From a virus, in UHGV virus genome UHGV-0315882: a stretch of DNA of 56,283 bases. The stretch is one strand, 5' to 3'. Every line of letters begins with the position of its first letter. Position 1 is the first letter of the stretch. Under the pieces are notes generated by a model. That model was not told the DNA's origin. It worked only from the letters and a program-made list of their open reading frames with translations, and made no database searches. Positions 4,032 to 39,411 of this stretch are shown piece by piece. Position numbers and translations under genes: made by a program.

Positions 4032-4817
4032 TTAGTTCTTTGCGTCTAAGAAGGTAAGCTCTGGTGAAGAGAAAACCGTCTCGATATCCTCATCAGTTCT
4101 TGCATAGATGTAAGCATCTGCATCACTGCCAAATGTTACTGCAATCCTGTGATTGCTCTTCGACAGGTGGGTAACTAGAGCGTTACTTAGAGACATCTTT
4201 TCAACCGGAGGGTTACTTTGATGTATCTTGCCTTTTCTTCGTCTGAAGAGGGTAACTACATCATTAGTGAACACTACTACACCAGCAAAGTATTCTGGTT
4301 CACAGTAGTTCTTCCAACCTGAGCGTAACTTGTGGTACATCTCTCCTTCATAGACATACAGATACACATCTACACTCTTCATCACCTGATTAATGATGAC
4401 TGTGACGGCTTGAGAGTCTAGTCCACCGATACCTGCACCAATCATAGGTAACCCAACTTTCTTCAACTGATTGACTTCACAGTATCTGTTAAGTTGTTTC
4501 AAAGATGATTCTAAAGCACTGTATCGGGCATCTTTACCAGTCTTAAGCTGAGTGTAAAGGTTAGCTATACGGCCTTGTTCTAAACGTGCTACAGAGAAAT
4601 TGCCTAGTAAATTTTCACAGGGTTTGTGACCTATGCCACCTGCATACAGATAAACTTCTGTATCGGTCTCATATGCTTTTGGGTAAAGTTTAGAAATCTT
4701 GTCAGCGATACCTGCACCCATTAAGTTCATACAGTTGCAACCGTGACCAATGATATCAAACTTACCTTTATCAAATGCGGAGAAGATATCCCCATTGATG
4801 ATTTTTACAATACCCAT
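4032..4817 (-). CDS. TARG1/OARD1-like macrodomain protein with unknown C-terminal domain (261 aa)
   Basis: N-terminal ~150 aa carry GDIF...HGCNCMNLMGAGIA...LPMIGAGIGGLD, matching TARG1-type macrodomain hallmarks recalled from memory; GGGAGAGA RBS. Confidence 0.6.
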   Translation of the reverse strand: MGIVKIINGDIFSAFDKGKFDIIGHGCNCMNLMGAGIADKISKLYPKAYETDTEVYLYAGGIGHKPCENLLGNFSVARLEQGRIANLYTQLKTGKDARYSALESSLKQLNRYCEVNQLKKVGLPMIGAGIGGLDSQAVTVIINQVMKSVDVYLYVYEGEMYHKLRSGWKNYCEPEYFAGVVVFTNDVVTLFRRRKGKIHQSNPPVEKMSLSNALVTHLSKSNHRIAVTFGSDADAYIYARTDEDIETVFSSPELTFLDAKN

Positions 4818-12304: not shown

Positions 12305-14086
12305 TTAAAGCTGCTTGTCAATATTATTTCGAATATCGCCAAGAGTTGTGTAGCCAAACTGCTCAGAGTCGCTAAAGACTAAACGTAAAGCACAAGCTGG
12401 ATGTTCAAGTGCATCTGCAAAGCTCTGGAATCCATAGCCATCTACAGCTTTCAATTTATCACCATCCCACATAGGCGCTACACCACCAAAGGCAGACTTC
12501 TTCACACCACTATCTGTTTTAGGGTCTTTTGCAAGCATAATCTCCTTACCACCAATGCTTGCAAGAGTTGCTTTGACAGCAAATGCAAAGGTGTCACGAG
12601 TCATGTACTGGTAAGTGTAAGAGCCTACACCAAACACTACGTTAGAGCTTGCAAAACCCATTTCATACAAACGCTTCAATATTTCGTTTGCACGTTCCAA
12701 CGTGATAGAGTCACCATAAATAAGTCCGATGTGCTCATCCAGTACTTTAAAACCTTTGGAGTTGATAGTCCCTCCGAAGATGTTATACAGGGTCTTAATA
12801 GCTCCATCAATCTCTGCTACAGGACGTGTTACAACGTTTGCAGAACCAACCATATAAGCATTCTTCAGCAGTACTGTATCAGCAACTTCAAAGTCTTCTC
12901 GGTCAACAACCATTTCGTAGCCTTCTGACAGTAGCCATCCAGCAATACCATAGTTGATGTTTTCAAGCTTCATGTTCAGAACAGATTTCAGCATTGTATC
13001 ACTAGCTTCCAGCTTGCTAAGATGTTCATAATAAGCCTTCTTAGCACATTCTAAGTGGATTGCTTTATAACCTGTGACAATATGCACAGGGTCTCCAGAG
13101 TCAGGACGAATTACCAGCTTGCCGTCACGTTCCATAATCTCTTTACGGAGTTCTGGCAGTATCACTGATACAGTTCTCCAGAAGTTATAAGTATCTGAAA
13201 CAATACTTGCAATACCCGTTGGGTAAGTTTCTGTTAAGAAACGACGGAAGGTTTGTAACTCACCTTTAAAGCGTCTTTCTTCTTCAATCAATTCGTTACC
13301 ACCTTCCCAAGCAATGTTTGCACACATTACAGAGTGCTCAGTGGCTGGTACAGAGCTACCAATATCAGAGACTGGGTAAGACTGTCCGTAGATGCGTTTA
13401 GCTGTATATACGGCAGGGAAGCTATCAGTTCCTTTAAAGCTGGTCAAGTGGCCTACAGCATTAAATGCGTCATCAGTAAAGCCGGACATACCACGCATAG
13501 CAAAGTCATGGCACTGATAAGGCAAATGCAAGTCGTTATCACAAGTAAGGTCAGCCCACTTCTTACAGATACGTTTGTAGTGCAATGCAATAGTTGCAAT
13601 GGTACAAGCCTTCCAAATCTCAGCAGAGAAAGCATCTTCCAGATAACCTGCTACCCAATGGAAACCTGAAACAGTGTTCTGGAAAACAATCATTGGGACA
13701 CGCATAGGGACAACTGTGCCTTCTTCTACAGCGTATACTTCAACTGGTAGATAACCTAAGTCGTGAAGTGCTTCCCAATGCTCTCGACCGATAGCATCTT
13801 TACCAAGAACACCATTCATGACTTCTAAGATTTCGTCAATTGCTTCTTTTTTATCACGTTCAAAGAAAGTGGCATTCCAGTGGTCTATCAAGTAATCTTT
13901 AACAAAACGTTGAATACCAAAAGCCACTACACCGTCAATTGCTAAAGGGCTGTTAAACCATTTATCACTACGTGGTGTCAGGTTGAACATCAAGTACTCT
14001 GTTGCGCTAGGATACTGGTAAACATGACCAGATTTGTAAGCATCTGCATTTAAACCTGCTGGTACTGCATAAAGTGATTTAGTCAT
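12305..14086 (-). CDS. NAMPT-family phosphoribosyltransferase (593 aa); nicotinamide phosphoribosyltransferase or Namat-like ADPR transferase
   Basis: N-terminal DAYKSGHVYQYP matches the NAMPT/NAPRT signature; length and collinearity fit the family. Confidence 0.8.
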   Translation of the reverse strand: MTKSLYAVPAGLNADAYKSGHVYQYPSATEYLMFNLTPRSDKWFNSPLAIDGVVAFGIQRFVKDYLIDHWNATFFERDKKEAIDEILEVMNGVLGKDAIGREHWEALHDLGYLPVEVYAVEEGTVVPMRVPMIVFQNTVSGFHWVAGYLEDAFSAEIWKACTIATIALHYKRICKKWADLTCDNDLHLPYQCHDFAMRGMSGFTDDAFNAVGHLTSFKGTDSFPAVYTAKRIYGQSYPVSDIGSSVPATEHSVMCANIAWEGGNELIEEERRFKGELQTFRRFLTETYPTGIASIVSDTYNFWRTVSVILPELRKEIMERDGKLVIRPDSGDPVHIVTGYKAIHLECAKKAYYEHLSKLEASDTMLKSVLNMKLENINYGIAGWLLSEGYEMVVDREDFEVADTVLLKNAYMVGSANVVTRPVAEIDGAIKTLYNIFGGTINSKGFKVLDEHIGLIYGDSITLERANEILKRLYEMGFASSNVVFGVGSYTYQYMTRDTFAFAVKATLASIGGKEIMLAKDPKTDSGVKKSAFGGVAPMWDGDKLKAVDGYGFQSFADALEHPACALRLVFSDSEQFGYTTLGDIRNNIDKQL

Positions 14087-14131: not shown

Positions 14132-15028
14132 TTAATCAAGGTTTGCTACAGTAACTTGGCTATAATGTGTTAAGCCACGGTCTTTAGCTTCCCCTAAAGA
14201 GTTTGTAGTGTAGATATGGTCAATACCATTGTCAAGAAGGTTTTCAACATCTTTAGAGAAGATACCATGTGTTACATAGAGTTCCACTCGTTTTGCACCT
14301 GCTTCACGAAGATGTTTAGCTGCTTCTATGAAGGTTCGTCCTCCATCACAAATATCATCCAGAATCATGACGGTTTTATCTGTCAAATCAACATCGTCAA
14401 GGATTCGCATACCAGTGATTTCACCAGTCTTGAGGTTGCGTACTTTAGACATTGTGATATATGGTTTATCCACCTCTTTAGCGGTTTCTGCAACCTTCTT
14501 AGCAGCACCTGCATCTGGGGCCACTAAGTAATCAACCAGTGGGTCATTTGCATAGTGGACTGCAATCTCCTTTTGAGGAATACTCTGGAAGCAGTTAAAC
14601 AGGTTATCTGGAACGTAACTGTGAGGGTCAACTGCACAGACTGCACCAAACCCCATTGCATTAACCTGTTTAGCAAAAACCTTCAAAGCTGCTGCATCGC
14701 CTTTAAACATGTGACGGTCATATCGTGCATTTGGTAAGTAGTAAAAGATGACAGTCTTTAAAGCATAATCATGAGGAATTAAATCATCAATTGCTTCTTT
14801 AGCAAGTGCTACAGCAAACAATGTGTCTTTATCATAACCTTTTACAATCATAATCACATTGTTGATGGATGATGCAGCATAAGCAGTAAAATCAACAAAC
14901 TCTGGTGAAAAGTGTCCACCAATCTCACCAGAAGGAAATTGGATGATGTTAAACTCTTCTTCATGAGTTCCTTTAGTTGGTGAATGAACTGTAACACGTA
15001 TAGATGTTTTCATAATTTTCTCTCTCAA
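14132..15028 (-). CDS. Ribose-phosphate pyrophosphokinase (Prs) family protein (298 aa); PRPP synthetase or ADPR-PP synthetase (Adps)-like
   Basis: Type I PRTase/PRPP-binding motif VMILDDICDGGRTF; size fits Prs. Confidence 0.8.
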   Translation of the reverse strand: MREKIMKTSIRVTVHSPTKGTHEEEFNIIQFPSGEIGGHFSPEFVDFTAYAASSINNVIMIVKGYDKDTLFAVALAKEAIDDLIPHDYALKTVIFYYLPNARYDRHMFKGDAAALKVFAKQVNAMGFGAVCAVDPHSYVPDNLFNCFQSIPQKEIAVHYANDPLVDYLVAPDAGAAKKVAETAKEVDKPYITMSKVRNLKTGEITGMRILDDVDLTDKTVMILDDICDGGRTFIEAAKHLREAGAKRVELYVTHGIFSKDVENLLDNGIDHIYTTNSLGEAKDRGLTHYSQVTVANLD

Positions 15029-16548: not shown

Positions 16549-17034
16549 TCATTCTGCTCGCCATTGGCAATCACCTTGCCACCCATACTCTTTTCTCCAG
16601 AGGTTTTGGTTATCAGAACCACGATATGGTTTAACTGTTGGTTTAGATGAATCATACTTACCATCAATCACCACGTCAACATATTTCATCACATCAAGGT
16701 GAATTTTTTCATGTAACTGAAAACCTGTCCAGAGCCAGATAGATTTTTCTGGGTAAACGGTTTTAATACGTTTGCATATGTTGGTAACCTCTTGAATGTT
16801 TCTATCATCCAGAGGTTCTCCACCAAGTATTGACAGCCCACTGATGGCATTATCATCCATTAACTTAATGATGCCGTAGAGGTTTGCATAAGTAAACACT
16901 TTACCGGCATTAAACTTCCAAGACTCCCTGTTAAAGCAGCCTTCACAGTGATGCTTACAACCAGCTACGAAGAGGCTTACACGAACCCCTTCACCATTAG
17001 CTGTGTCAAATGGTCGAATCTCCATGTAATTCAT
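16549..17034 (-). CDS. nrdG: Anaerobic ribonucleotide reductase activating protein (radical SAM)
   Basis: GCKHHCEGCFN matches the CxxxCxxC radical-SAM cluster motif; size ~160 aa. Confidence 0.75.
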   Translation of the reverse strand: MNYMEIRPFDTANGEGVRVSLFVAGCKHHCEGCFNRESWKFNAGKVFTYANLYGIIKLMDDNAISGLSILGGEPLDDRNIQEVTNICKRIKTVYPEKSIWLWTGFQLHEKIHLDVMKYVDVVIDGKYDSSKPTVKPYRGSDNQNLWRKEYGWQGDCQWRAE

Positions 17035-26274: not shown

Positions 26275-26772
26275 TCAAGTACAGTTTGCTTTCATTACCT
26301 TATGGATTCTTTTTTCAGCATCTTCATAAGTTTCTTTAGTAATAAACTTAATTGCTGCAATATTGGCATTGTAGAAGAGTCTGAGCTTAGAGTCAATCCT
26401 TTTTGTCATTACATCGAATTTATGTTGGAGGTTTGCTTCACCATAAACTAGACCACCTTTCGTGTAGTAGGTTTGGATAATGTAAAAGTCAAAAAATTCT
26501 TTTCCAAAGCTCTCAATATCTTTTTTAATATACTCAGAAGAGGTTTCGTAAGTCATCCAATCACTTTCCTTAGTGACTACCTTCTTCCGAGTCTTCCCAG
26601 CAACTTTTCTTTTGTTCACACTGTTAAGCTGTTTCTTTCCTATATAATATTGTCCAGTCTTCTTACAGTGTACTAAATAGACAAAGCCAAAATGTTTAGT
26701 GGGGTCAACTTCCCCACATAAAGATACCCAATGACCGTAGGTAGGGCAATTGCCAAATCCTTTAATCTTCAT
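26275..26772 (-). CDS. GIY-YIG domain protein, putative homing endonuclease (165 aa)
   Basis: GFVYLVHCKKTGQYYIGKK matches the GIY...YIG motif pair. Confidence 0.5.
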   Translation of the reverse strand: MKIKGFGNCPTYGHWVSLCGEVDPTKHFGFVYLVHCKKTGQYYIGKKQLNSVNKRKVAGKTRKKVVTKESDWMTYETSSEYIKKDIESFGKEFFDFYIIQTYYTKGGLVYGEANLQHKFDVMTKRIDSKLRLFYNANIAAIKFITKETYEDAEKRIHKVMKANCT

Positions 26773-33424: not shown

Positions 33425-33681
33425 GTAAGCCTCTTTTAAGTAACTATTAAGTTTTAATCTTTTATCTTAACGTATTCTATACGTTATACTTTAAAGCTTT
33501 TTAAAAGCTATTAAATAATCTTTTAAGAGTTTTAAAGTATCTGTATAGTTAAACTGTTAAGTAACCTTTTAAGTAAAAACCCACTTCGCAAAGATTAACA
33601 CCTTGTCAAGTGCATTGTCAACTTGCTTTTTATAATTTTTTGCAGTAATGTATGAGGTTAATGATTTTAGAGGGAGTAAAA
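33425..33681. promoter_or_regulatory. AT-rich divergent control region
   Basis: Consensus TATAAT at 33631-33636 upstream of the polymerase ATG; repeated CTTTTAAG/TTTAAAG motifs; small inverted repeat ACGTAT/ATACGT (33471-33486). Confidence 0.45.
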
Positions 33682-36381
33682 ATGGAAAACGTAGATTTTA
33701 AAAACTTACATTTGGTTGGTGATACAGAAACTGATGGTTTACTCCTTGAGTTCACTAAAGTGCACGTAATGGCTTTCGCAGACTATAAATCTGACGATGA
33801 AGAGCCACCTGTATGGGTCTTTACAGATGAACCTATCCTCGGTCACAAGTATACCAAGTACATTAAGGGTGGCTTACGTGAAGGTGTTGAATTTGCGTTA
33901 AAGGCAAAACGTCTTTGCATCCATAATGGTCTCGGTTATGACTGGTGGGTTTTCAATCACATTGCACCTGATTTGTGGAACTTTGATAATCCAAAATGTA
34001 AGCCGTGGAGTAATTTCTTTCAGGATTCTCTTATCCAGTCTCGTGTTCAGTGGATGGATAGACCAACTCCAAAGGGCTATAAAGGTGCTCATGGTTTGGC
34101 TGCATGGGGTGCTCGTGTTGGTGTTCGTAAACCAGAGATTGAACATTGGGGTGTGTGGAATGCAGAAATCTTCACTCGTGTTGTAGAAGATATCCGTATT
34201 AACGCCAAAACTAAACGGGCGCTTGATAATGAATATCTCAAGCTTAAGAAGTGTGGCATAGACACTTATGAAACCTACATGCGAGCTAAAGAAACATCTT
34301 TCTGGATGAGTCAACAAGCTATCAATGGCTGGAAAGCTGATAAAGAGCTTATGGAGTTCCATGTAAAGGAACTTGACAAGTTGACTAATGAGCTTGCTTC
34401 AGAGGTTGAACCACATCTACCTCCAACTATTAAGACCAAAGGTAAAGTAACTGGTGAAGAGTTTGCAAAGGCTTGGAATGAGTATGTTGAAACATTTGGT
34501 CATGCAGATGGGTTGAAGAGAATCACCAAGTATCCTAAGACGAAGTACCGTCAACAGGTGCGTAACGGTGAGATGCAGACATACGAAATCAAACCATTTG
34601 GTAAGCCAACTACAAAGATTTTTAACATTGAAAAGAGAAATTGCTATACACCAACCAACTCTGTAACTGGTGAAGAGTACAAGGAAGGCTTTGTAGCAAT
34701 GAAGGATGCTCGTGCAATTTGCAATGAGTTGAATGCAAAGATTGGTAAGAAATGCAAAGACTGGAAGCCAGTGAAAACAGTCAAAACTGTGAAGTACTAT
34801 AACAGTCACGTTGTTAACCACTTTGAACTTGAGTCAAGTCGATACACAGGTTTGATTGATGCACCATATACACCAATTGATTTTGAAGTTTCTCGTATGA
34901 CTCAGGTAGCAGTTGTTAAAGACTACTTGAAATCAGTTGGTTGGATTCCAGATGACTGGAACTACAAGAAAGACTCAGATGGTCGCCCTGTCAAAGTTTG
35001 TCGTTTCAAAGACAATAAAAAGATGATTACAAAACATCCTAAGTGGCAGGAAATGGTTGAGCGGTGTGGTTTGAGCTATGTTGAACATGAAGGTGTACAG
35101 TACATTGAACATAACTGGTCTGTGAAGAAGTACACAGATTTGCTTGAGCCTTGCTTAATCCGTACTTCACCAAAGCTTACTGAGTCATCTTATGATACGA
35201 TTGAAGGTGAACTTGGACAGAAGATTGCTAAGTACTATACTTTGATGCACCGACGCAGAACTATTGAGAACTCAAAGGATGATGAAAAAGGTTGGTTGAA
35301 CCAGATTCGTCCTGATGGTCGCCTTAGTGCTGGTGCAATGGTGTTTGGTACTTCAACTGGACGTATGACACAATATGGTATTGTAAACGTACCGTCTGGT
35401 GCTGCTGTCTATGGGGAACCAATGAGGGCAGTGTGGATTTGTGAGGAAGGTACTAACGTTGTCTCTGTAGATATGAACTCAGCCCAGCTAGTTCTACTTT
35501 GTAACTTTATGGGTGATAAAGACTTCACCAAAGCGGTAACGCAAGGTAAAGAAGAAATTGAGTTCATTCGTCAAGAAGATGGACGCTATTACTGCAAACA
35601 CTTTGATGAGTACCTCAACCCAGAGATTGATAAGTACCTTCGCTATGACTCTGAGAATGACCTGTACGTTGTCTATTCAGGGACTGATGCACATACACTG
35701 AACAGTATTTACTTTAGCTTGAATGATGAGCAGGACATCTTGACTTGTCGAGCTACTCAGGATGAGAATCTTCTTCATGAGATTAGCAAAGGTCGTAAGA
35801 AAGCTAAGAATGGTATCTATGCACTGCTGTTCGGTGCAGGTGATGAGAAGTTTGCTAAGACGATTAAAGCTGCGACTACTCAGGAAGGTGCGCTGACTAA
35901 ACAGACTTACTTTATACGTTTGCCTAAAATTAAGAAGCTACTAGATGACTTGGAAGCTGACTACAAAGCAACTAAAAAGGCACTTGAAGAGGTGTTTGGT
36001 AAGACTGCTGCAATCTCTAAAGGGGGTTTTGTAAAGGTTGCTGGAGCTTGGTTGTGGTGTAAATCTCCACATAAGTTATTGAATTATTTGCTTATGGGTT
36101 CGGAAAGTCAGATTCAGAACGAGGCAATTAACCTTGCTTGCCGTCGTATGATTGACGAAGGTTTGATGAAGTTGAACGGTCGCAAACCCGCTATAGGTGC
36201 TCGTTTATTGTGCTCCTATCACGACGAGACAAGTTGGGAATGCCCAGAAAGTATGACGGCAGAGGTGAAGGCTGTTACTGATTGGTATTACGGGCAAGCC
36301 TCTAAGAACTTAGGACTAAAAAGTGAAACACTGGTAACTGGTACTGGTAAGGTTGGCAAATCGTGGTTGGAAGTGCATTAA
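33682..36381 (+). CDS. DNA polymerase, family A (T7-like) with 3'-5' exonuclease domain
   Basis: Start trimmed to MENVDF with GAGGGAG RBS; Exo I DTETDG; motifs resembling pol A motif A (VDMNSAQL), motif B (KNGIYALLFG) and motif C (YHDE). Confidence 0.85.
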   Translation: MENVDFKNLHLVGDTETDGLLLEFTKVHVMAFADYKSDDEEPPVWVFTDEPILGHKYTKYIKGGLREGVEFALKAKRLCIHNGLGYDWWVFNHIAPDLWNFDNPKCKPWSNFFQDSLIQSRVQWMDRPTPKGYKGAHGLAAWGARVGVRKPEIEHWGVWNAEIFTRVVEDIRINAKTKRALDNEYLKLKKCGIDTYETYMRAKETSFWMSQQAINGWKADKELMEFHVKELDKLTNELASEVEPHLPPTIKTKGKVTGEEFAKAWNEYVETFGHADGLKRITKYPKTKYRQQVRNGEMQTYEIKPFGKPTTKIFNIEKRNCYTPTNSVTGEEYKEGFVAMKDARAICNELNAKIGKKCKDWKPVKTVKTVKYYNSHVVNHFELESSRYTGLIDAPYTPIDFEVSRMTQVAVVKDYLKSVGWIPDDWNYKKDSDGRPVKVCRFKDNKKMITKHPKWQEMVERCGLSYVEHEGVQYIEHNWSVKKYTDLLEPCLIRTSPKLTESSYDTIEGELGQKIAKYYTLMHRRRTIENSKDDEKGWLNQIRPDGRLSAGAMVFGTSTGRMTQYGIVNVPSGAAVYGEPMRAVWICEEGTNVVSVDMNSAQLVLLCNFMGDKDFTKAVTQGKEEIEFIRQEDGRYYCKHFDEYLNPEIDKYLRYDSENDLYVVYSGTDAHTLNSIYFSLNDEQDILTCRATQDENLLHEISKGRKKAKNGIYALLFGAGDEKFAKTIKAATTQEGALTKQTYFIRLPKIKKLLDDLEADYKATKKALEEVFGKTAAISKGGFVKVAGAWLWCKSPHKLLNYLLMGSESQIQNEAINLACRRMIDEGLMKLNGRKPAIGARLLCSYHDETSWECPESMTAEVKAVTDWYYGQASKNLGLKSETLVTGTGKVGKSWLEVH

Positions 36382-36391
36382 TGGTGACAAA

Positions 36392-36919
36392 ATGATTACA
36401 CAAGAACGTTTAAAGGAGCTACTACACTATGACCCCGAAACAGGGGTCTTTACTTGGCTTCGTAGAGAGGGTGACTCAAGGGCTGTTAAAGTCTTTAATA
36501 GTAAGTACGCAGGACAGGTAGCGGGGAGCATCCAGATTGACTCAACTAGTCATAAGCAGATTACTATCTATTTTGACAAGAAAGCACATAAAGCACACAG
36601 ACTCGCATGGCTGTACGTGTATGGTAGGCTACCGAAAGGTGTTATTGACCATATTAATGGGGACTCCCTTGATAACAGGGTTGTAAACTTAAGAGAAGCA
36701 GATGACTGCCAAAGTGCTTGGAATAAAAGCAAACTATCCACCAATAAATCAGGCTATAAGGGTGTAAGCCTGAAGAAGAAGTCTGGTAGGTGGGTTGCGC
36801 AAATAAGCTATAAAGGTAAAAAGATGTCATTAGGTTACTATGACACACCAGAAGAGGCCCATAAAGCTTACTGTGAAGCTGCTATTAAACTCCACGGAGA
36901 ATTTGCAAAACTAAGTTGA
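36392..36919 (+). CDS. HNH homing endonuclease with C-terminal AP2 DNA-binding domain
   Basis: HRLAWLYVYG...DHINGDSLDNRVVNL (HNH) and YKGVS...GRWVAQI...YDTPEEAHKAY...HGEFA (AP2-like); start trimmed to MITQE. Confidence 0.65.
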   Translation: MITQERLKELLHYDPETGVFTWLRREGDSRAVKVFNSKYAGQVAGSIQIDSTSHKQITIYFDKKAHKAHRLAWLYVYGRLPKGVIDHINGDSLDNRVVNLREADDCQSAWNKSKLSTNKSGYKGVSLKKKSGRWVAQISYKGKKMSLGYYDTPEEAHKAYCEAAIKLHGEFAKLS

Positions 36920-36970: not shown

Positions 36971-37180
36971 ATGAGCCACCGTGGAAGAACCCATGCAGCG
37001 ATGATGAAAGGTGCTTCAAAGGAGACTATCAAAAATCGTAAGCAGAAGTTGTTTGAGAGAATGAACAGGTTAATTGACAATTCATCTCTTTCAGGTTCTG
37101 AGAAGGTTTTCTTGAAAGGGAATCTGAAAAGTATTGCACAGGAACTTATGGATATTGAATTTTGGAGAAACCAAAAATGA
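36971..37180 (+). CDS. hypothetical protein (69 aa)
   Basis: AGGAGGG RBS upstream. Confidence 0.5.
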   Translation: MSHRGRTHAAMMKGASKETIKNRKQKLFERMNRLIDNSSLSGSEKVFLKGNLKSIAQELMDIEFWRNQK

Positions 37181-37389
37181 CTTATGAAGAAGCTGTTGAA
37201 GCAATGAAGCAAGGTAAGAAGGTTCGTAATGAGAACTTCACATCTGATGAGTTCTTTGAAATGAAAGATGGAAAGATTGTCTGTGAAATGGGTTACCCGA
37301 TGGCTTCATGGTATCGTGGTCTTGATTGGCAGAAATCTGGGTGGAGCATTGTGCAAGACTCTCCAAAAGCATCTGACTTATTCTTTTAA
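37177..37389 (+). CDS. DUF2829-like small protein (71 aa)
   Basis: Start at MTYEEAVEAMKQGKKV with GGAGA RBS and ATGA overlap; N-terminal motif resembles the DUF2829 family hallmark as recalled from memory. Confidence 0.4.
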   Translation: MTYEEAVEAMKQGKKVRNENFTSDEFFEMKDGKIVCEMGYPMASWYRGLDWQKSGWSIVQDSPKASDLFF

Positions 37390-37398
37390 GGAAAAGAT

Positions 37399-37605
37399 AT
37401 GGAAGCCTTAGTAAACTATATCTACTGTTATGATGTTGTTCACTCCACTACAACCGTAGCTCAATGTAACCCAATCGTCCCACGAGAGGGTGAGTTGGTT
37501 CGAATCGAGGGTTGGACTTACACTGTGGGGAGCATCATTCATAAGTTTGATGTTGCTGGTGATGTTCAAGTCATCGACGTAGAGATTGTTGGTAAAAGAA
37601 AATGA
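37399..37605 (+). CDS. hypothetical protein (68 aa)
   Basis: ORF in tight plus-strand array. Confidence 0.45.
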   Translation: MEALVNYIYCYDVVHSTTTVAQCNPIVPREGELVRIEGWTYTVGSIIHKFDVAGDVQVIDVEIVGKRK

Positions 37606-37787
37606 AAACAGAACCTGTAAAAACTGAAGATGGAAACATTGAGACATTCTCAATCACAGTCGCTGGTGATGAGTTCTCTTGCAAATGTGGGTGTAACTGC
37701 TTTCATAAACCAGATAAAACAAAACTTGGTCTTTATGAATGTAATAGTTGTGGGTTGAGGTTCTTAGACAAAAGCAAGGATATGTGA
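37602..37787 (+). CDS. small zinc-ribbon protein (61 aa), paralog of 38115-38306
   Basis: FSITVAGDEFSCKCGCNCFHKPDK...LYECNSC; shares this pattern with 38115-38306. Confidence 0.5.
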   Translation: MKTEPVKTEDGNIETFSITVAGDEFSCKCGCNCFHKPDKTKLGLYECNSCGLRFLDKSKDM

Positions 37788-38035
37788 TGAAGATAACTCA
37801 AGAAATGAAGAAGTTGTATGAGGGAAGTGTGAAGATTCCACCAAGAACTGATGCAAAGAAGTTACTATTCAACTCTTGGATGAATGATTGCACGTATGAG
37901 CAATACTACTTTAAAGTAATAGCATCAGGTGAAAGACCAGAATCACCAGAATATTATGAAAGTTACATAATGTGGCGTGATGAAAAATGTTTAGACTTCT
38001 ACGAAAGATACATGGAAGCAGTAAATTCAATTTAA
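37787..38035 (+). CDS. hypothetical protein (82 aa)
   Basis: Start trimmed to MKITQEM with AAGGA RBS. Confidence 0.45.
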   Translation: MKITQEMKKLYEGSVKIPPRTDAKKLLFNSWMNDCTYEQYYFKVIASGERPESPEYYESYIMWRDEKCLDFYERYMEAVNSI

Positions 38036-38114: not shown

Positions 38115-38306
38115 ATGAACAAAGAAGATAAGCATAAAAATGCTGTACGAACTCCTGATGGAAAGGTTCAATCCTTCATCCTGACAGTTGGTGGAAAGCC
38201 GTTTCGTTGCCACTGCGGAGCGAACTGTTTTCATAAACCAGATAAAAATGACTTAGAGCTTTACGCATGTAATGCTTGCAATACTTGGTATCACTCAGAG
38301 GAATAA
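38115..38306 (+). CDS. small zinc-ribbon protein (63 aa), paralog of 37602-37787
   Basis: FILTVGGKPFRCHCGANCFHKPDK...LYACNAC. Confidence 0.5.
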   Translation: MNKEDKHKNAVRTPDGKVQSFILTVGGKPFRCHCGANCFHKPDKNDLELYACNACNTWYHSEE

Positions 38307-38307
38307 A

Positions 38308-39411
38308 ATGACAATTCTATACAAACAAAATAAAGACGGCTCTTTCAACGTTTGGTCATGCGTTGCTGTAGGTGATAAAGTTGTTACAACCTACGGTAAA
38401 GAAAATGGCAAGATGATGTTTGAAGAGTATACAGCAGAACCTAAAAACATCGGTAAAAAGAATGAGCGTAACGCTGAACAGCAAGCTCTCTTTGAAGTTG
38501 CTGCAAAGTATAAAAAGCAGGTTGACCGCAAAGGTTATGCTTACACAAAAGAGTCTGCACAGAATACTGAGAAGGTAGGTGTACAGCTTGCTCATGATGC
38601 TGCAAAGGTTAGTCATGCAAAGTATTTGAAATTCCCTGCTGATGCTCAACCGAAGCTTGATGGTGTACGTTGTAGAATTTCAAGACACTTAAGCATTGGT
38701 AGCGTATTCACAGCATACTCTCGTGAGAATACTGTTTATAAAATCCCTACTGAACTCATACCTGACATTATGGCAATGTTAAGGCTCCACAAAGATGTTG
38801 ATGAGTTTGATGGAGAGATTTATGCTCATGGGTGGGACTTAGAAGATATCGTCTCTATGATTAAAAATGAAGACAATCCTGACAGACACCTGCTCAAGTT
38901 TTACTGGTATGATATCTGTGACAGTACTAAGACGTGGCCTGAGCGTAGAGATATCATTGAGACTTCACCATTGAATGGCTTTAGAGATGGCTGTAAAGTT
39001 GTCCCTGTTAAGTCTCGTCGTGTAAATTCTTGGGAAGAATTTGATGAAGCTCATGATAAGTGGGTTGAAGCTAAGTTTGAAGGTGCAATGTACCGTTCAA
39101 TCTCTGAAGACTCCTTCTATGAGTGTTGTCACCGTTCATACTTCTTGATTAAGCACAAGAAGATGCACACTGAAGAGTTTAAAGTAACTGGTGTCAAGAC
39201 TGATAAACGTGGACATGGCAAGTTCGTTGTAGAGACTCTTCCTAACGTCTTTGTAGATGTCTCATGGAAGACTACTCATGAGAAGAAACAGTATCTTGCT
39301 GAGCATCCTGAAGAGTTTATTGGGAAACCTTTAACGGTTCAGTTCCAGAAGATGACTCGTAAAGGTTCTTTACAGTTCCCTGTTGGGTTAGTTATTCGAG
39401 ACTACGAATAA
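38308..39411 (+). CDS. ATP-dependent DNA ligase-like protein
   Basis: Nucleotidyltransferase motif I KLDG (PKLDGVRC); GAGGA RBS; ~367 aa. Confidence 0.6.
   Translation: MTILYKQNKDGSFNVWSCVAVGDKVVTTYGKENGKMMFEEYTAEPKNIGKKNERNAEQQALFEVAAKYKKQVDRKGYAYTKESAQNTEKVGVQLAHDAAKVSHAKYLKFPADAQPKLDGVRCRISRHLSIGSVFTAYSRENTVYKIPTELIPDIMAMLRLHKDVDEFDGEIYAHGWDLEDIVSMIKNEDNPDRHLLKFYWYDICDSTKTWPERRDIIETSPLNGFRDGCKVVPVKSRRVNSWEEFDEAHDKWVEAKFEGAMYRSISEDSFYECCHRSYFLIKHKKMHTEEFKVTGVKTDKRGHGKFVVETLPNVFVDVSWKTTHEKKQYLAEHPEEFIGKPLTVQFQKMTRKGSLQFPVGLVIRDYE

What the first reader, a model, noticed from the sequence alone, without database searches (positions are those of the whole stretch)
37177..37389. DUF2829-like small protein: possible Tad2-type signalling-molecule sponge
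The 71 aa ORF begins MTYEEAVEAMKQGKKV, resembling the N-terminal hallmark of the widespread phage DUF2829 family as I recall it. Some members of that family (Tad2) sequester Thoeris-derived ADPR-based signals. With the NAMPT/Prs pair and the macrodomain protein this would make three ADPR/NAD-related functions in one genome. The protein is shorter than typical members and assignment rests on a short motif.
Basis: partly seen in the sequence, partly recalled or inferred. Interest (0 to 1): 0.5.

Follow-up and report, generated by a model that had tools for sequence, protein, structure and literature searches.

The report
Insertion-less mini-Tad2 fold phage protein
This small phage gene is real and encodes a stripped-down, roughly 60-residue version of the Tad2 fold that other phages use to soak up bacterial immune alarm molecules, but its pocket residues differ, so what it binds is unknown.

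Summary
The ORF is real. It runs 37177..37389 (+) and encodes 70 aa, not 71. It has a GGAGA ribosome-binding site and is under purifying selection.

Sequence evidence for Tad2/DUF2829 is weak but specific:
- Pfam PF11195 is the only hit, at 22.5 bits (cut-off 25), covering residues 1-34 only.
- Profile-profile comparison with genuine Tad2 homologues gives 92% probability over 59 columns. The single 24-residue gap falls at the known variable Tad2 insertion.

The AlphaFold2 model (pLDDT 81.6) matches only Tad2 structures:
- The top nine Foldseek PDB hits are all Tad2.

The fold assignment is therefore supported.

The protein belongs to a separate family, phrog_3474, found in 457 phage records. 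All listed matches are annotated 'hypothetical', or mislabelled. The family lacks the Tad2 insertion and replaces most Tad2-invariant residues. By alignment, W25/N26 becomes F21/T22, while W73 and D79 are kept. The family has its own invariant set (F21, E25, E37, G39, Y40, W56), which lies on the pocket-equivalent loops.

The gene is a swappable cassette between DNA polymerase and ligase. A sponge-like anti-defence role is plausible. Thoeris/gcADPR specificity is unproven.

The parts
37177..37389 (+). Protein-coding gene, 70 aa plus stop; mini-Tad2 fold protein (phrog_3474)
   Evidence: ORF and translation. phrog_3474 E 2.1e-33. 457 phage records by tblastn. dN/dS 0.115 against Mordin.
37164..37168 (+). 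Ribosome-binding site GGAGA, 8 nt upstream of the ATG
   Evidence: Read directly from the sequence.
36971..37180 (+). Upstream small ORF (homologue of Felix01p174) whose stop overlaps the start codon (ATGA); likely translational coupling within the polymerase-to-ligase gene array
   Evidence: No sigma-70-like promoter lies directly upstream of the gene.
37177..37356 (+). Residues 1-60: the conserved core domain, alpha1 (3-11), beta1 (16-18), beta2 (27-30), beta3 (33-36), short helix (50-53), last strand (56-58). It equals the Tad2 core without the beta2-beta3 insertion.
37228..37254 (+). Residues 18-26 (NENFTSDEF): the most conserved stretch of the family. It is the loop between beta1 and beta2 and aligns with the W25-N26 ligand loop of SPO1 Tad2 (F21 to W25, T22 to N26).
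   Evidence: Column counts F21 98/105, E25 103/105, D/E24 74/105, H/N18 99/105. hhalign mapping. Tad2 contact residues from bioRxiv 10.1101/2023.05.01.538930.
37285..37296 (+). Residues 37-40 (EMGY): family-invariant E37, G39 and Y40 at the end of beta3 and the following loop. They align with the Tad2 A66-K69 stretch (beta3-beta4 loop) that contains D67.
   Evidence: E37 100/105, G39 91/105, Y40 74/105. Alignment. Spatial closeness of E25 and E37 is inferred from hairpin geometry, not measured.
37309..37326 (+). Residues 45-50 (WYRGLD): W45 and D50 align with Tad2 W73 and D79. G48 and L49 replace S76 and T78.
   Evidence: hhalign full-length and C-terminal-half alignments. The C-terminal half on its own is not significant (E 0.028). 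An aromatic at positions 45-47 is common across the family. D/E at position 50 occurs in 48/105.
37357..37386 (+). Residues 61-70 (DSPKASDLFF): C-terminal tail, low model confidence, found only in the closest relatives
   Evidence: pLDDT for this block is 54. The tail is absent from most homologues. Full-length DNA matches occur in only 8 records.
37182..37398 (.). Gene-sized cassette with no counterpart in Felixounavirus JohannRWettstein. Homology of 97.5% stops at 37181 and resumes at 37399.
   Evidence: Pairwise blastn. JohannRWettstein carries three other annotated small ORFs at that site; the two I translated are unrelated in sequence. The ORF is 97.7% identical to Suspvirus EcSzw-2, while its flanks are 87-89% identical.

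Best explanation
The gene encodes a minimal, insertion-less member of the Tad2 (DUF2829) fold superfamily, with a 60-residue core of one N-terminal helix packed on a small antiparallel sheet. It belongs to its own widespread family of enterobacterial lytic-phage proteins (phrog_3474). It sits as an exchangeable accessory cassette in the polymerase-to-ligase gene array. Most likely it works like Tad2: it self-associates through helix alpha1, so that the conserved beta1-beta2 loop (F21, T22, D24, E25), the E37-G39-Y40 loop and the W45 region of neighbouring subunits form a pocket that sequesters a small, probably nucleotide-derived, host immune signal. Because the second Tad2 pocket is built from the missing insertion, only the ADPR-type site could remain. 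That site's chemistry has changed, so the ligand may not be 3'cADPR. Shown here: the gene is real and under selection, the fold and remote homology hold, and the gene behaves as a cassette. Inferred only: oligomerisation, the pocket, the ligand and the anti-defence role.
Against: Pfam stays below threshold for this protein (22.5 against 25 bits) and for all 10 representatives tested individually. Foldseek E-values against the PDB are only 0.2-0.7. The C-terminal half alone shows no significant sequence similarity. Residues invariant in genuine Tad2 (R22, W25, N26, G27, K28, S76, Q77, L81, D84) are replaced. The positively charged R22 and K28 become N/H18 and D/E24. Known sponge pockets are positively charged (PMC12265669). 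The insertion carrying helix alpha2, which forms the V-shaped Tad2 dimer, is absent, so the tetramer may not form. The fusion partners of family members match no Pfam family, Acb4 (PF13876) and Sequestin (PF21825) included. Neighbouring genes give no functional hint. No oligomer model, ligand docking or experiment was possible here.
Confidence: 0.5

Rival explanations
1. It is a canonical anti-Thoeris Tad2: a homotetramer that sequesters 1''-3' gcADPR (3'cADPR) and blocks type I Thoeris.
For: It has the same fold, and the only PDB relatives are Tad2 proteins. By alignment, W73, D79 and I63 equivalents are identical and W25 and N26 are conservatively replaced by F21 and T22. In characterised members the only Tad2 pocket that does not need the insertion binds ADPR-derived signals. 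The phage also encodes NAMPT/Prs and a macro domain, so it invests in NAD/ADPR metabolism.
Against: In HgmTad2, the W21A/N22A and S90A/T92A/D93A mutants were the ones used to disrupt the gcADPR site. Here the equivalents are F-T and G-L-D. D67, H71, S76 and T78 are not kept, and Tad2-invariant R22, G27, K28 and Q77 are lost. D50 is variable within the family (D/E in 48 of 105). The alpha2 dimer interface is missing. ModTad2, which is far closer to SPO1 Tad2, already fails to inhibit type I Thoeris.
Confidence: 0.2
2. It uses the Tad2 fold as a scaffold to bind a host or phage macromolecule, for example as an inhibitor of a defence protein or a host-takeover factor, and it sequesters no small molecule.
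For: A DUF2829 protein (AcrIIA7/HgmTad2) was first isolated as a Cas9 inhibitor. The family's invariant residues are acidic and aromatic rather than basic. The domain often occurs as an N-terminal module on longer proteins of unknown function, some ending in a strongly basic tail. A homologue lies in the pre-early region of a T5-like phage.
Against: Every biochemically characterised Tad2-fold protein binds small signalling molecules. The conserved residues cluster on the pocket-equivalent loops rather than on a broad surface. No partner can be inferred from gene neighbourhoods.
Confidence: 0.25
3. It is a dispensable accessory of the replication module, such as a polymerase or ligase cofactor, with no role in host immunity.
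For: In Ounavirinae it lies between the DNA polymerase and DNA ligase genes, in the same transcriptional direction and apparently translationally coupled.
Against: In other phage groups it sits in unrelated contexts: after an ATPase in Vequintavirinae, and in the terminal repeat of T5-like phages. Closely related Felixounavirus genomes replace it with unrelated small genes. Its fold has no known replication role.
Confidence: 0.05

Closest known systems
Tad2 of Bacillus phage SPO1 (gp34.65; PDB 8SME/8SMF/8SMG/8WJE), founder of Pfam PF11195 Tad2-like/DUF2829
   Same: N-terminal helix followed by an antiparallel sheet, with a short helix before the last strand. The profile alignment is colinear over residues 1-60 against 5-89. 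By alignment, an aromatic is kept at W25, and W73, D79 and the C-terminal W85-x-I-V are retained. It is a small acidic phage protein.
   Different: It is 60 core residues against 89. The 24-residue beta2-beta3 insertion with helix alpha2 (a dimer interface) is absent. The R-x-G-W-N-G-K and S-Q-T-D-x-L-A-E-D-W signatures are replaced by H/N-x-x-F-T-x-D-E and G-x-D...G-W. It falls below the Pfam threshold and in a different PHROG (3474 against 1048/872).
HgmTad2/AcrIIA7 (PDB 8KBI) and SptTad2 (8WJD)
   Different: These proteins have a long insertion, about twice that of SPO1 Tad2, which builds a second pocket for cyclic dinucleotides. The window protein has no insertion at all, so that pocket cannot exist.
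ModTad2 of a Myroides odoratus prophage (PDB 9EIB/8V3E), a His-ADPR and cUMP sponge
   Different: ModTad2 keeps the canonical W-N motif and the D-x-L-A-E-D-W end of the C-terminal signature, together with the insertion.
phrog_3474 / phrog_22208 (unknown function)
   Same: This protein is a full-length member (E 2.1e-33). Relatives occur in Ounavirinae (Suspvirus, Mooglevirus), Vequintavirinae, Epseptimavirus, large Klebsiella myoviruses with genomes of about 165 kb, and Erwinia, Proteus and Cronobacter phages.
   Different: No function is recorded for these families. A few members are auto-labelled DUF2829/Tad2-like in UniProt.
Tad1, Acb2, Acb4, Sequestin (other phage sponge families)
   Same: They share the general logic expected here: a short protein that forms a homo-oligomer with pockets at subunit interfaces.
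   Different: Their folds are unrelated. No fusions of this family to Acb4 or Sequestin were found.

Membership tests
Tad2-like / DUF2829 (Pfam PF11195) | Match to the PF11195 profile at or above the gathering score (25 bits) | tested here: not met
   22.5 bits, E 1.7e-4, residues 1-34 against profile positions 1-32 of 73. Ten other family members score 14.8-20.8 bits or do not match; one aligns end to end. 30 of 105 representatives hit at E<=0.01.
Tad2-like / DUF2829 (Pfam PF11195) | Remote homology to genuine Tad2 homologues by profile-profile comparison | tested here: met
   hhalign of A2 (105 sequences) against A4 (81 PF11195-annotated homologues of SPO1 Tad2): 91.8% probability, E 7.4e-7 over 34 columns. 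With extension: 92.4%, E 5.3e-7 over 59 columns.
Tad2-like / DUF2829 (Pfam PF11195) | Fold: helix alpha1 plus antiparallel beta sheet with a short helix before the last strand | tested here: met
Tad2-like / DUF2829 (Pfam PF11195) | Insertion between beta2 and beta3 carrying helix alpha2 (V-shaped dimer interface; second ligand pocket in some members) | tested here: not met
   beta2 (27-30) and beta3 (33-36) are joined by a two-residue D-G turn. hhalign places a 24-residue gap there.
Tad2-like / DUF2829 (Pfam PF11195) | Ligand-contact residues of the gcADPR pocket (SPO1: W25, N26, I63, T65, D67, H71, W73, S76, T78, D79) | tested here: inconclusive
Tad2-like / DUF2829 (Pfam PF11195) | Homotetramer with pockets between non-dimeric protomers | not testable with these tools
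   Only monomer prediction was available. A natural tandem-repeat member (P0076), tried as a stand-in for a dimer, gave an unusable model with pLDDT 35.
Tad2-like / DUF2829 (Pfam PF11195) | Binds and sequesters a TIR- or CD-NTase-derived signal and inhibits Thoeris, CBASS or Pycsar | not testable with these tools
   This needs biochemistry and phage infection assays.
LIM zinc-binding domain (considered because of PDB sequence hits to Lhx3/Lhx4) | Eight conserved Cys/His/Asp zinc ligands | tested here: not met
   The match covers only a 24-residue hairpin at E 0.013-0.05. The protein has a single Cys (C36), which is D, C or T across the family. No LIM structure appears among the fold matches.

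The most novel reading that the evidence does not exclude
The mini-Tad2 family (phrog_3474) is a sponge for an immune signal that no characterised Tad2 binds, possibly a molecule made by a still undescribed signalling defence system of Enterobacteriaceae. Its distinct invariant pocket (H/N18, F21, T/S22, D/E24, E25, E37, Y40) would be tuned to that ligand. The purified protein could then be used to fish the unknown molecule out of infected cells, as ModTad2 was used to discover His-ADPR.
Probability: 0.15. Interest if true: 0.75.

Novelty: new variant of a known kind. Interest (0 to 1): 0.45.

Why it matters
Tad2-type sponges have twice served as tools to discover bacterial immune signals. This family is a compact, insertion-less version of the fold with a different conserved pocket. 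It is present in hundreds of sequenced coliphage, Salmonella and Klebsiella phage genomes, including groups considered for therapy, and in every match I examined it is either unannotated or mislabelled. If it is a sponge, it extends the known anti-defence repertoire of these phages. It would also define the smallest unit of the Tad2 fold that can bind a ligand, and it might point to a new signal. If it is not a sponge, it shows that the automatic label 'Tad2-like' does not transfer function.

Tried and rejected
1. Direct sequence searches against PDB chains gave only non-significant Tad2 hits (E 0.2-1.2) and spurious LIM-domain hairpin hits. The LIM reading was rejected because the zinc ligands are absent.
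2. hhalign of the C-terminal halves alone was not significant (E 0.028, probability 1.8%). It was used only as a colinear guide.
3. tblastn with a DUF2829 repeat taken from P0153 against the phage collection found nothing.
4. The Foldseek afdb50 library was unavailable.
5. An AF2 model of the tandem-repeat member P0076, tried as a proxy for a dimer, failed with pLDDT 35.
6. Pfam and PHROG scans of fusion partners found only unknown-function families, with no Acb4 or Sequestin.
7. Gene neighbourhoods of distant homologues showed only arrays of small unknown ORFs.
8. NCBIfam gave no hit.
9. Rfam and tRNA scans of the window gave nothing.
10. No promoter-like site lies directly upstream of the gene.
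11. T5 itself has no homologue in its first-step-transfer region.
12. Supplementary tables of the Tad2 diversity study were not available, so I could not check whether a mini-Tad2 was among the 18 homologues tested.

Full report
**Observation**

ATG is at 37177 and the stop ends at 37389 on the + strand. The translation is MTYEEAVEAMKQGKKVRNENFTSDEFFEMKDGKIVCEMGYPMASWYRGLDWQKSGWSIVQDSPKASDLFF. That is 70 residues plus a stop, not 71.

A GGAGA ribosome-binding site lies 8 nt upstream. The ATG overlaps the stop codon of the preceding small ORF (ATGA). No promoter-like site lies directly in front of the gene. It therefore reads as one gene in the co-directional array that runs from the DNA polymerase (33652-36381) and an HNH-AP2 homing endonuclease (36353-36919) to the DNA ligase (38272-39411).

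The window is an Ounavirinae (Felix O1-like) phage genome. An identical protein is encoded by Escherichia phage EcSzw-2.

**Is it a real gene?**

- tblastn finds homologues in 457 phage records: Klebsiella 169, Escherichia 110, Salmonella 75, and Citrobacter, Shigella, Erwinia, Cronobacter and others.
- An exhaustive profile search of 1.8 billion cluster representatives finds 236 clusters at E<=1e-3.
- Most of these are stand-alone proteins of 58-70 aa. Some carry the domain at the N-terminus of longer proteins.
- Against EcSzw-2 the ORF has 5 nucleotide differences and the two proteins are identical. It is 97.7% identical, while its flanks are only 87-89% identical.
- Against Citrobacter phage Mordin, dN/dS is 0.115.

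**Sequence relationship to Tad2/DUF2829**

- Pfam gives one hit, PF11195 (Tad2-like). It is below the curated threshold at 22.5 against 25 bits, E 1.7e-4, and covers residues 1-34 only.
- This holds across the family. 30 of 105 representatives hit PF11195 at E<=0.01.
- Of ten representatives scanned individually, seven score 14.8-20.8 bits, none passes the threshold, and one aligns end to end.
- The protein belongs to phrog_3474 (E 2e-33, unknown function). SPO1 Tad2 and short canonical Tad2 proteins belong to phrog_1048 and phrog_872. Only weak cross-hits link the two sets.

I recovered SPO1 Tad2 (gp34.65) from the SPO1 genome. Its W25, N26, I63, T65, D67, H71, W73, S76, T78 and D79 match the numbering in the original paper. 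I then aligned 81 PF11195-annotated homologues.

- Profile-profile comparison of the 105-member family alignment with that Tad2 alignment gives 91.8% probability, E 7.4e-7, over the N-terminal 34 columns.
- When extended, it gives 92.4% probability, E 5.3e-7, over 59 columns.
- The extended alignment has a single 24-residue gap opposite SPO1 Tad2 residues 40-63. This is close to the variable insertion (residues 36-59) described for Tad2.
- The C-terminal half alone is not significant, with E 0.028.
- An HMM built from canonical Tad2 picks this ORF, and no other, out of 496 six-frame ORFs in the window.

**Structure**

An AlphaFold2 model built on 35 homologues has mean pLDDT 81.6 and pTM 0.64. 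Its elements are helix 3-11, strands 16-18, 27-30 and 33-36, a short helix 50-53 and strand 56-58. The C-terminal tail has low confidence.

- The nine best Foldseek hits in the whole PDB are all Tad2 chains from SPO1, Myroides and Sphingobacterium. Their TM-scores are 0.51-0.62 and probabilities 0.69-0.91. Rank 10 drops to probability 0.05. The E-values themselves are weak, at 0.2-0.7.
- In the viral predicted-structure library, the best matches are family members. A few of them are already auto-labelled 'DUF2829' or 'Thoeris anti-defense 2-like'.

I conclude that essentially the whole 60-residue core is the Tad2 core fold, with the beta2-beta3 insertion reduced to a D-G turn.

**Pocket residues**

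The residue mapping uses the hhalign alignments, guided by the predicted secondary structure.

| SPO1 Tad2 | Window protein |
|---|---|
| W25 | F21 |
| N26 | T22 |
| I63 | I34 (by structure-guided reasoning) |
| T65 | C36 |
| D67 | M38 |
| H71 | M42 or A43 |
| W73 | W45 |
| S76 | G48 |
| T78 | L49 |
| D79 | D50 |
| W85 | W56 |

By this alignment, three of the ten published contact residues are identical, three are conservative replacements and four are lost.

- The residues invariant in my alignment of genuine Tad2 homologues are A10, R22, W25, N26, G27, K28, M30, S76, Q77, D79, L81, D84 and W85. Most are not kept.
- The family has its own near-invariant set: A6, G13, H/N18, F21, T/S22, D/E24, E25, Y/F26, G32, E37, G39, Y40, G55 and W56.
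- These residues sit on the beta1-beta2 loop, on the end of beta3 and on the following loop. Those are the same elements that wall the Tad2 gcADPR site.
- From hairpin geometry, E25 and E37 should lie next to each other. This is an inference, because no coordinates were available to me.
- The basic R22 and K28 of Tad2 are replaced by N/H and D/E, so the site would be less positively charged than known sponge pockets.

**Genomic behaviour**

- Against Felixounavirus JohannRWettstein, 97.5% DNA identity ends at 37181 and resumes at 37399. In between, that phage carries three other annotated small ORFs; the two I translated are unrelated in sequence.
- The cassette itself is of the Suspvirus type, 97.7% identical to EcSzw-2.
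- By DNA search, only 47 phage records carry the gene. Only 8 carry the version with the C-terminal tail. About 260 Ounavirinae-type records match the surrounding region.
- In Mooglevirus the gene occupies the same slot.
- In Vequintavirinae it sits among small early-type ORFs.
- In the T5-like phage saus132 it lies in the terminal repeat, which is injected first, alongside A1 and A2. T5 itself lacks it.

This patchy, cassette-like distribution is typical of accessory and counter-defence genes, but it is circumstantial evidence.

**Interpretation**

The fold and remote homology are well supported. The function is inferred.

Every biochemically characterised Tad2-fold protein is a homo-oligomeric sponge. 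The family is known to have diversified across 3'cADPR, His-ADPR, N7-cADPR, cUMP/cCMP and cyclic dinucleotides. The second pocket, which binds cyclic dinucleotides and cUMP, is built from the insertion that this protein lacks. Only the ADPR-type site between alpha1-linked protomers could remain.

I therefore favour a Tad2-like sponge whose ligand is unresolved (about 0.5). A macromolecule-binding role is the main alternative (about 0.25).

NAMPT is at 12305-14086, a Prs-like gene at 14132-15028 and a macro domain at 4032-4817. However, these genes lie 23-33 kb away on the other strand, whereas this gene behaves as a swappable cassette. The list adds little.

**Novelty**

This is not a new kind of system. 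It is a distinct, insertion-less and largely unannotated variant of the Tad2 fold, with a different conserved pocket. I found no paper that mentions Tad2 together with Ounavirinae, Vequintavirinae, Felix O1 or Epseptimavirus. The supplementary tables that would show whether such a protein has already been tested were not available.

Noticed in passing
window 37602-37787 and 38115-38306 (+), with 37748-38035 between them: Two paralogous small Cys-rich proteins (53% identity over 49 aa, E 5e-21) share the motif C-x-C-G-x-N-C-F-H-K-P-D-K...Y-x-C-N-x-C. They flank an extra ORF. Both copies align to overlapping stretches of JohannRWettstein (L001 4824-5191 and 5016-6324), and 37752-38102 is extra DNA, which suggests a local duplication plus insertion. 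None has a Pfam or NCBIfam match.
   Followed up: partly
window 36353-36919 (+): An HNH_3 plus AP2-domain homing endonuclease sits directly after the DNA polymerase gene and overlaps its end. It is present in JohannRWettstein but absent from EcSzw-2.
   Followed up: partly
window 12305-14086 (-), 14132-15028 (-), 4032-4817 (-): These ORFs encode a NAMPT-like protein (NAPRTase family plus NAMPT_N), a Prs-like phosphoribosyltransferase and a macro-domain protein.
   Followed up: partly
window 26275-26772 (-) and 16549-17034 (-): The first ORF is a SegE-type GIY-YIG endonuclease. EcSzw-2 annotates a 501-nt CDS at the matching place in the gene order as 'putative NAD synthetase'; the correspondence is inferred from gene order, not aligned. 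The second ORF is a radical-SAM activase of the anaerobic ribonucleotide reductase type.
   Followed up: no
L006 5001-5198 (Escherichia phage saus132, MF431737.1 7432-7629): A family homologue (46% identity) lies inside the left terminal repeat of a T5-like Epseptimavirus. This is the first-step-transfer region, and the A1 and A2 pre-early genes are nearby. Phage T5 has no homologue there.
   Followed up: partly
proteins P0021, P0022, P0025, P0037, P0161 (phrog_22208): Some family members carry an 80-90 residue C-terminal extension that ends in a strongly basic tail (...KGKGHNKLKKGKKK). Its function is unknown, and it might indicate nucleic-acid or membrane association.
   Followed up: no
proteins P0076, P0090, P0125: The mini-Tad2 domain occurs as a tandem repeat within single polypeptides. 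This would mimic a homodimer and fits a tendency to self-associate. A single-sequence AF2 model of P0076 was unusable.
   Followed up: partly
L011 2151-2504 (Salmonella phage 40, KR296694.1): The gene next to the homologue is annotated 'botulinum neurotoxin type D'. Other small ORFs nearby carry implausible names such as 'baseplate wedge initiator' for a 58-aa protein. These are evident annotation errors in that record.
   Followed up: no
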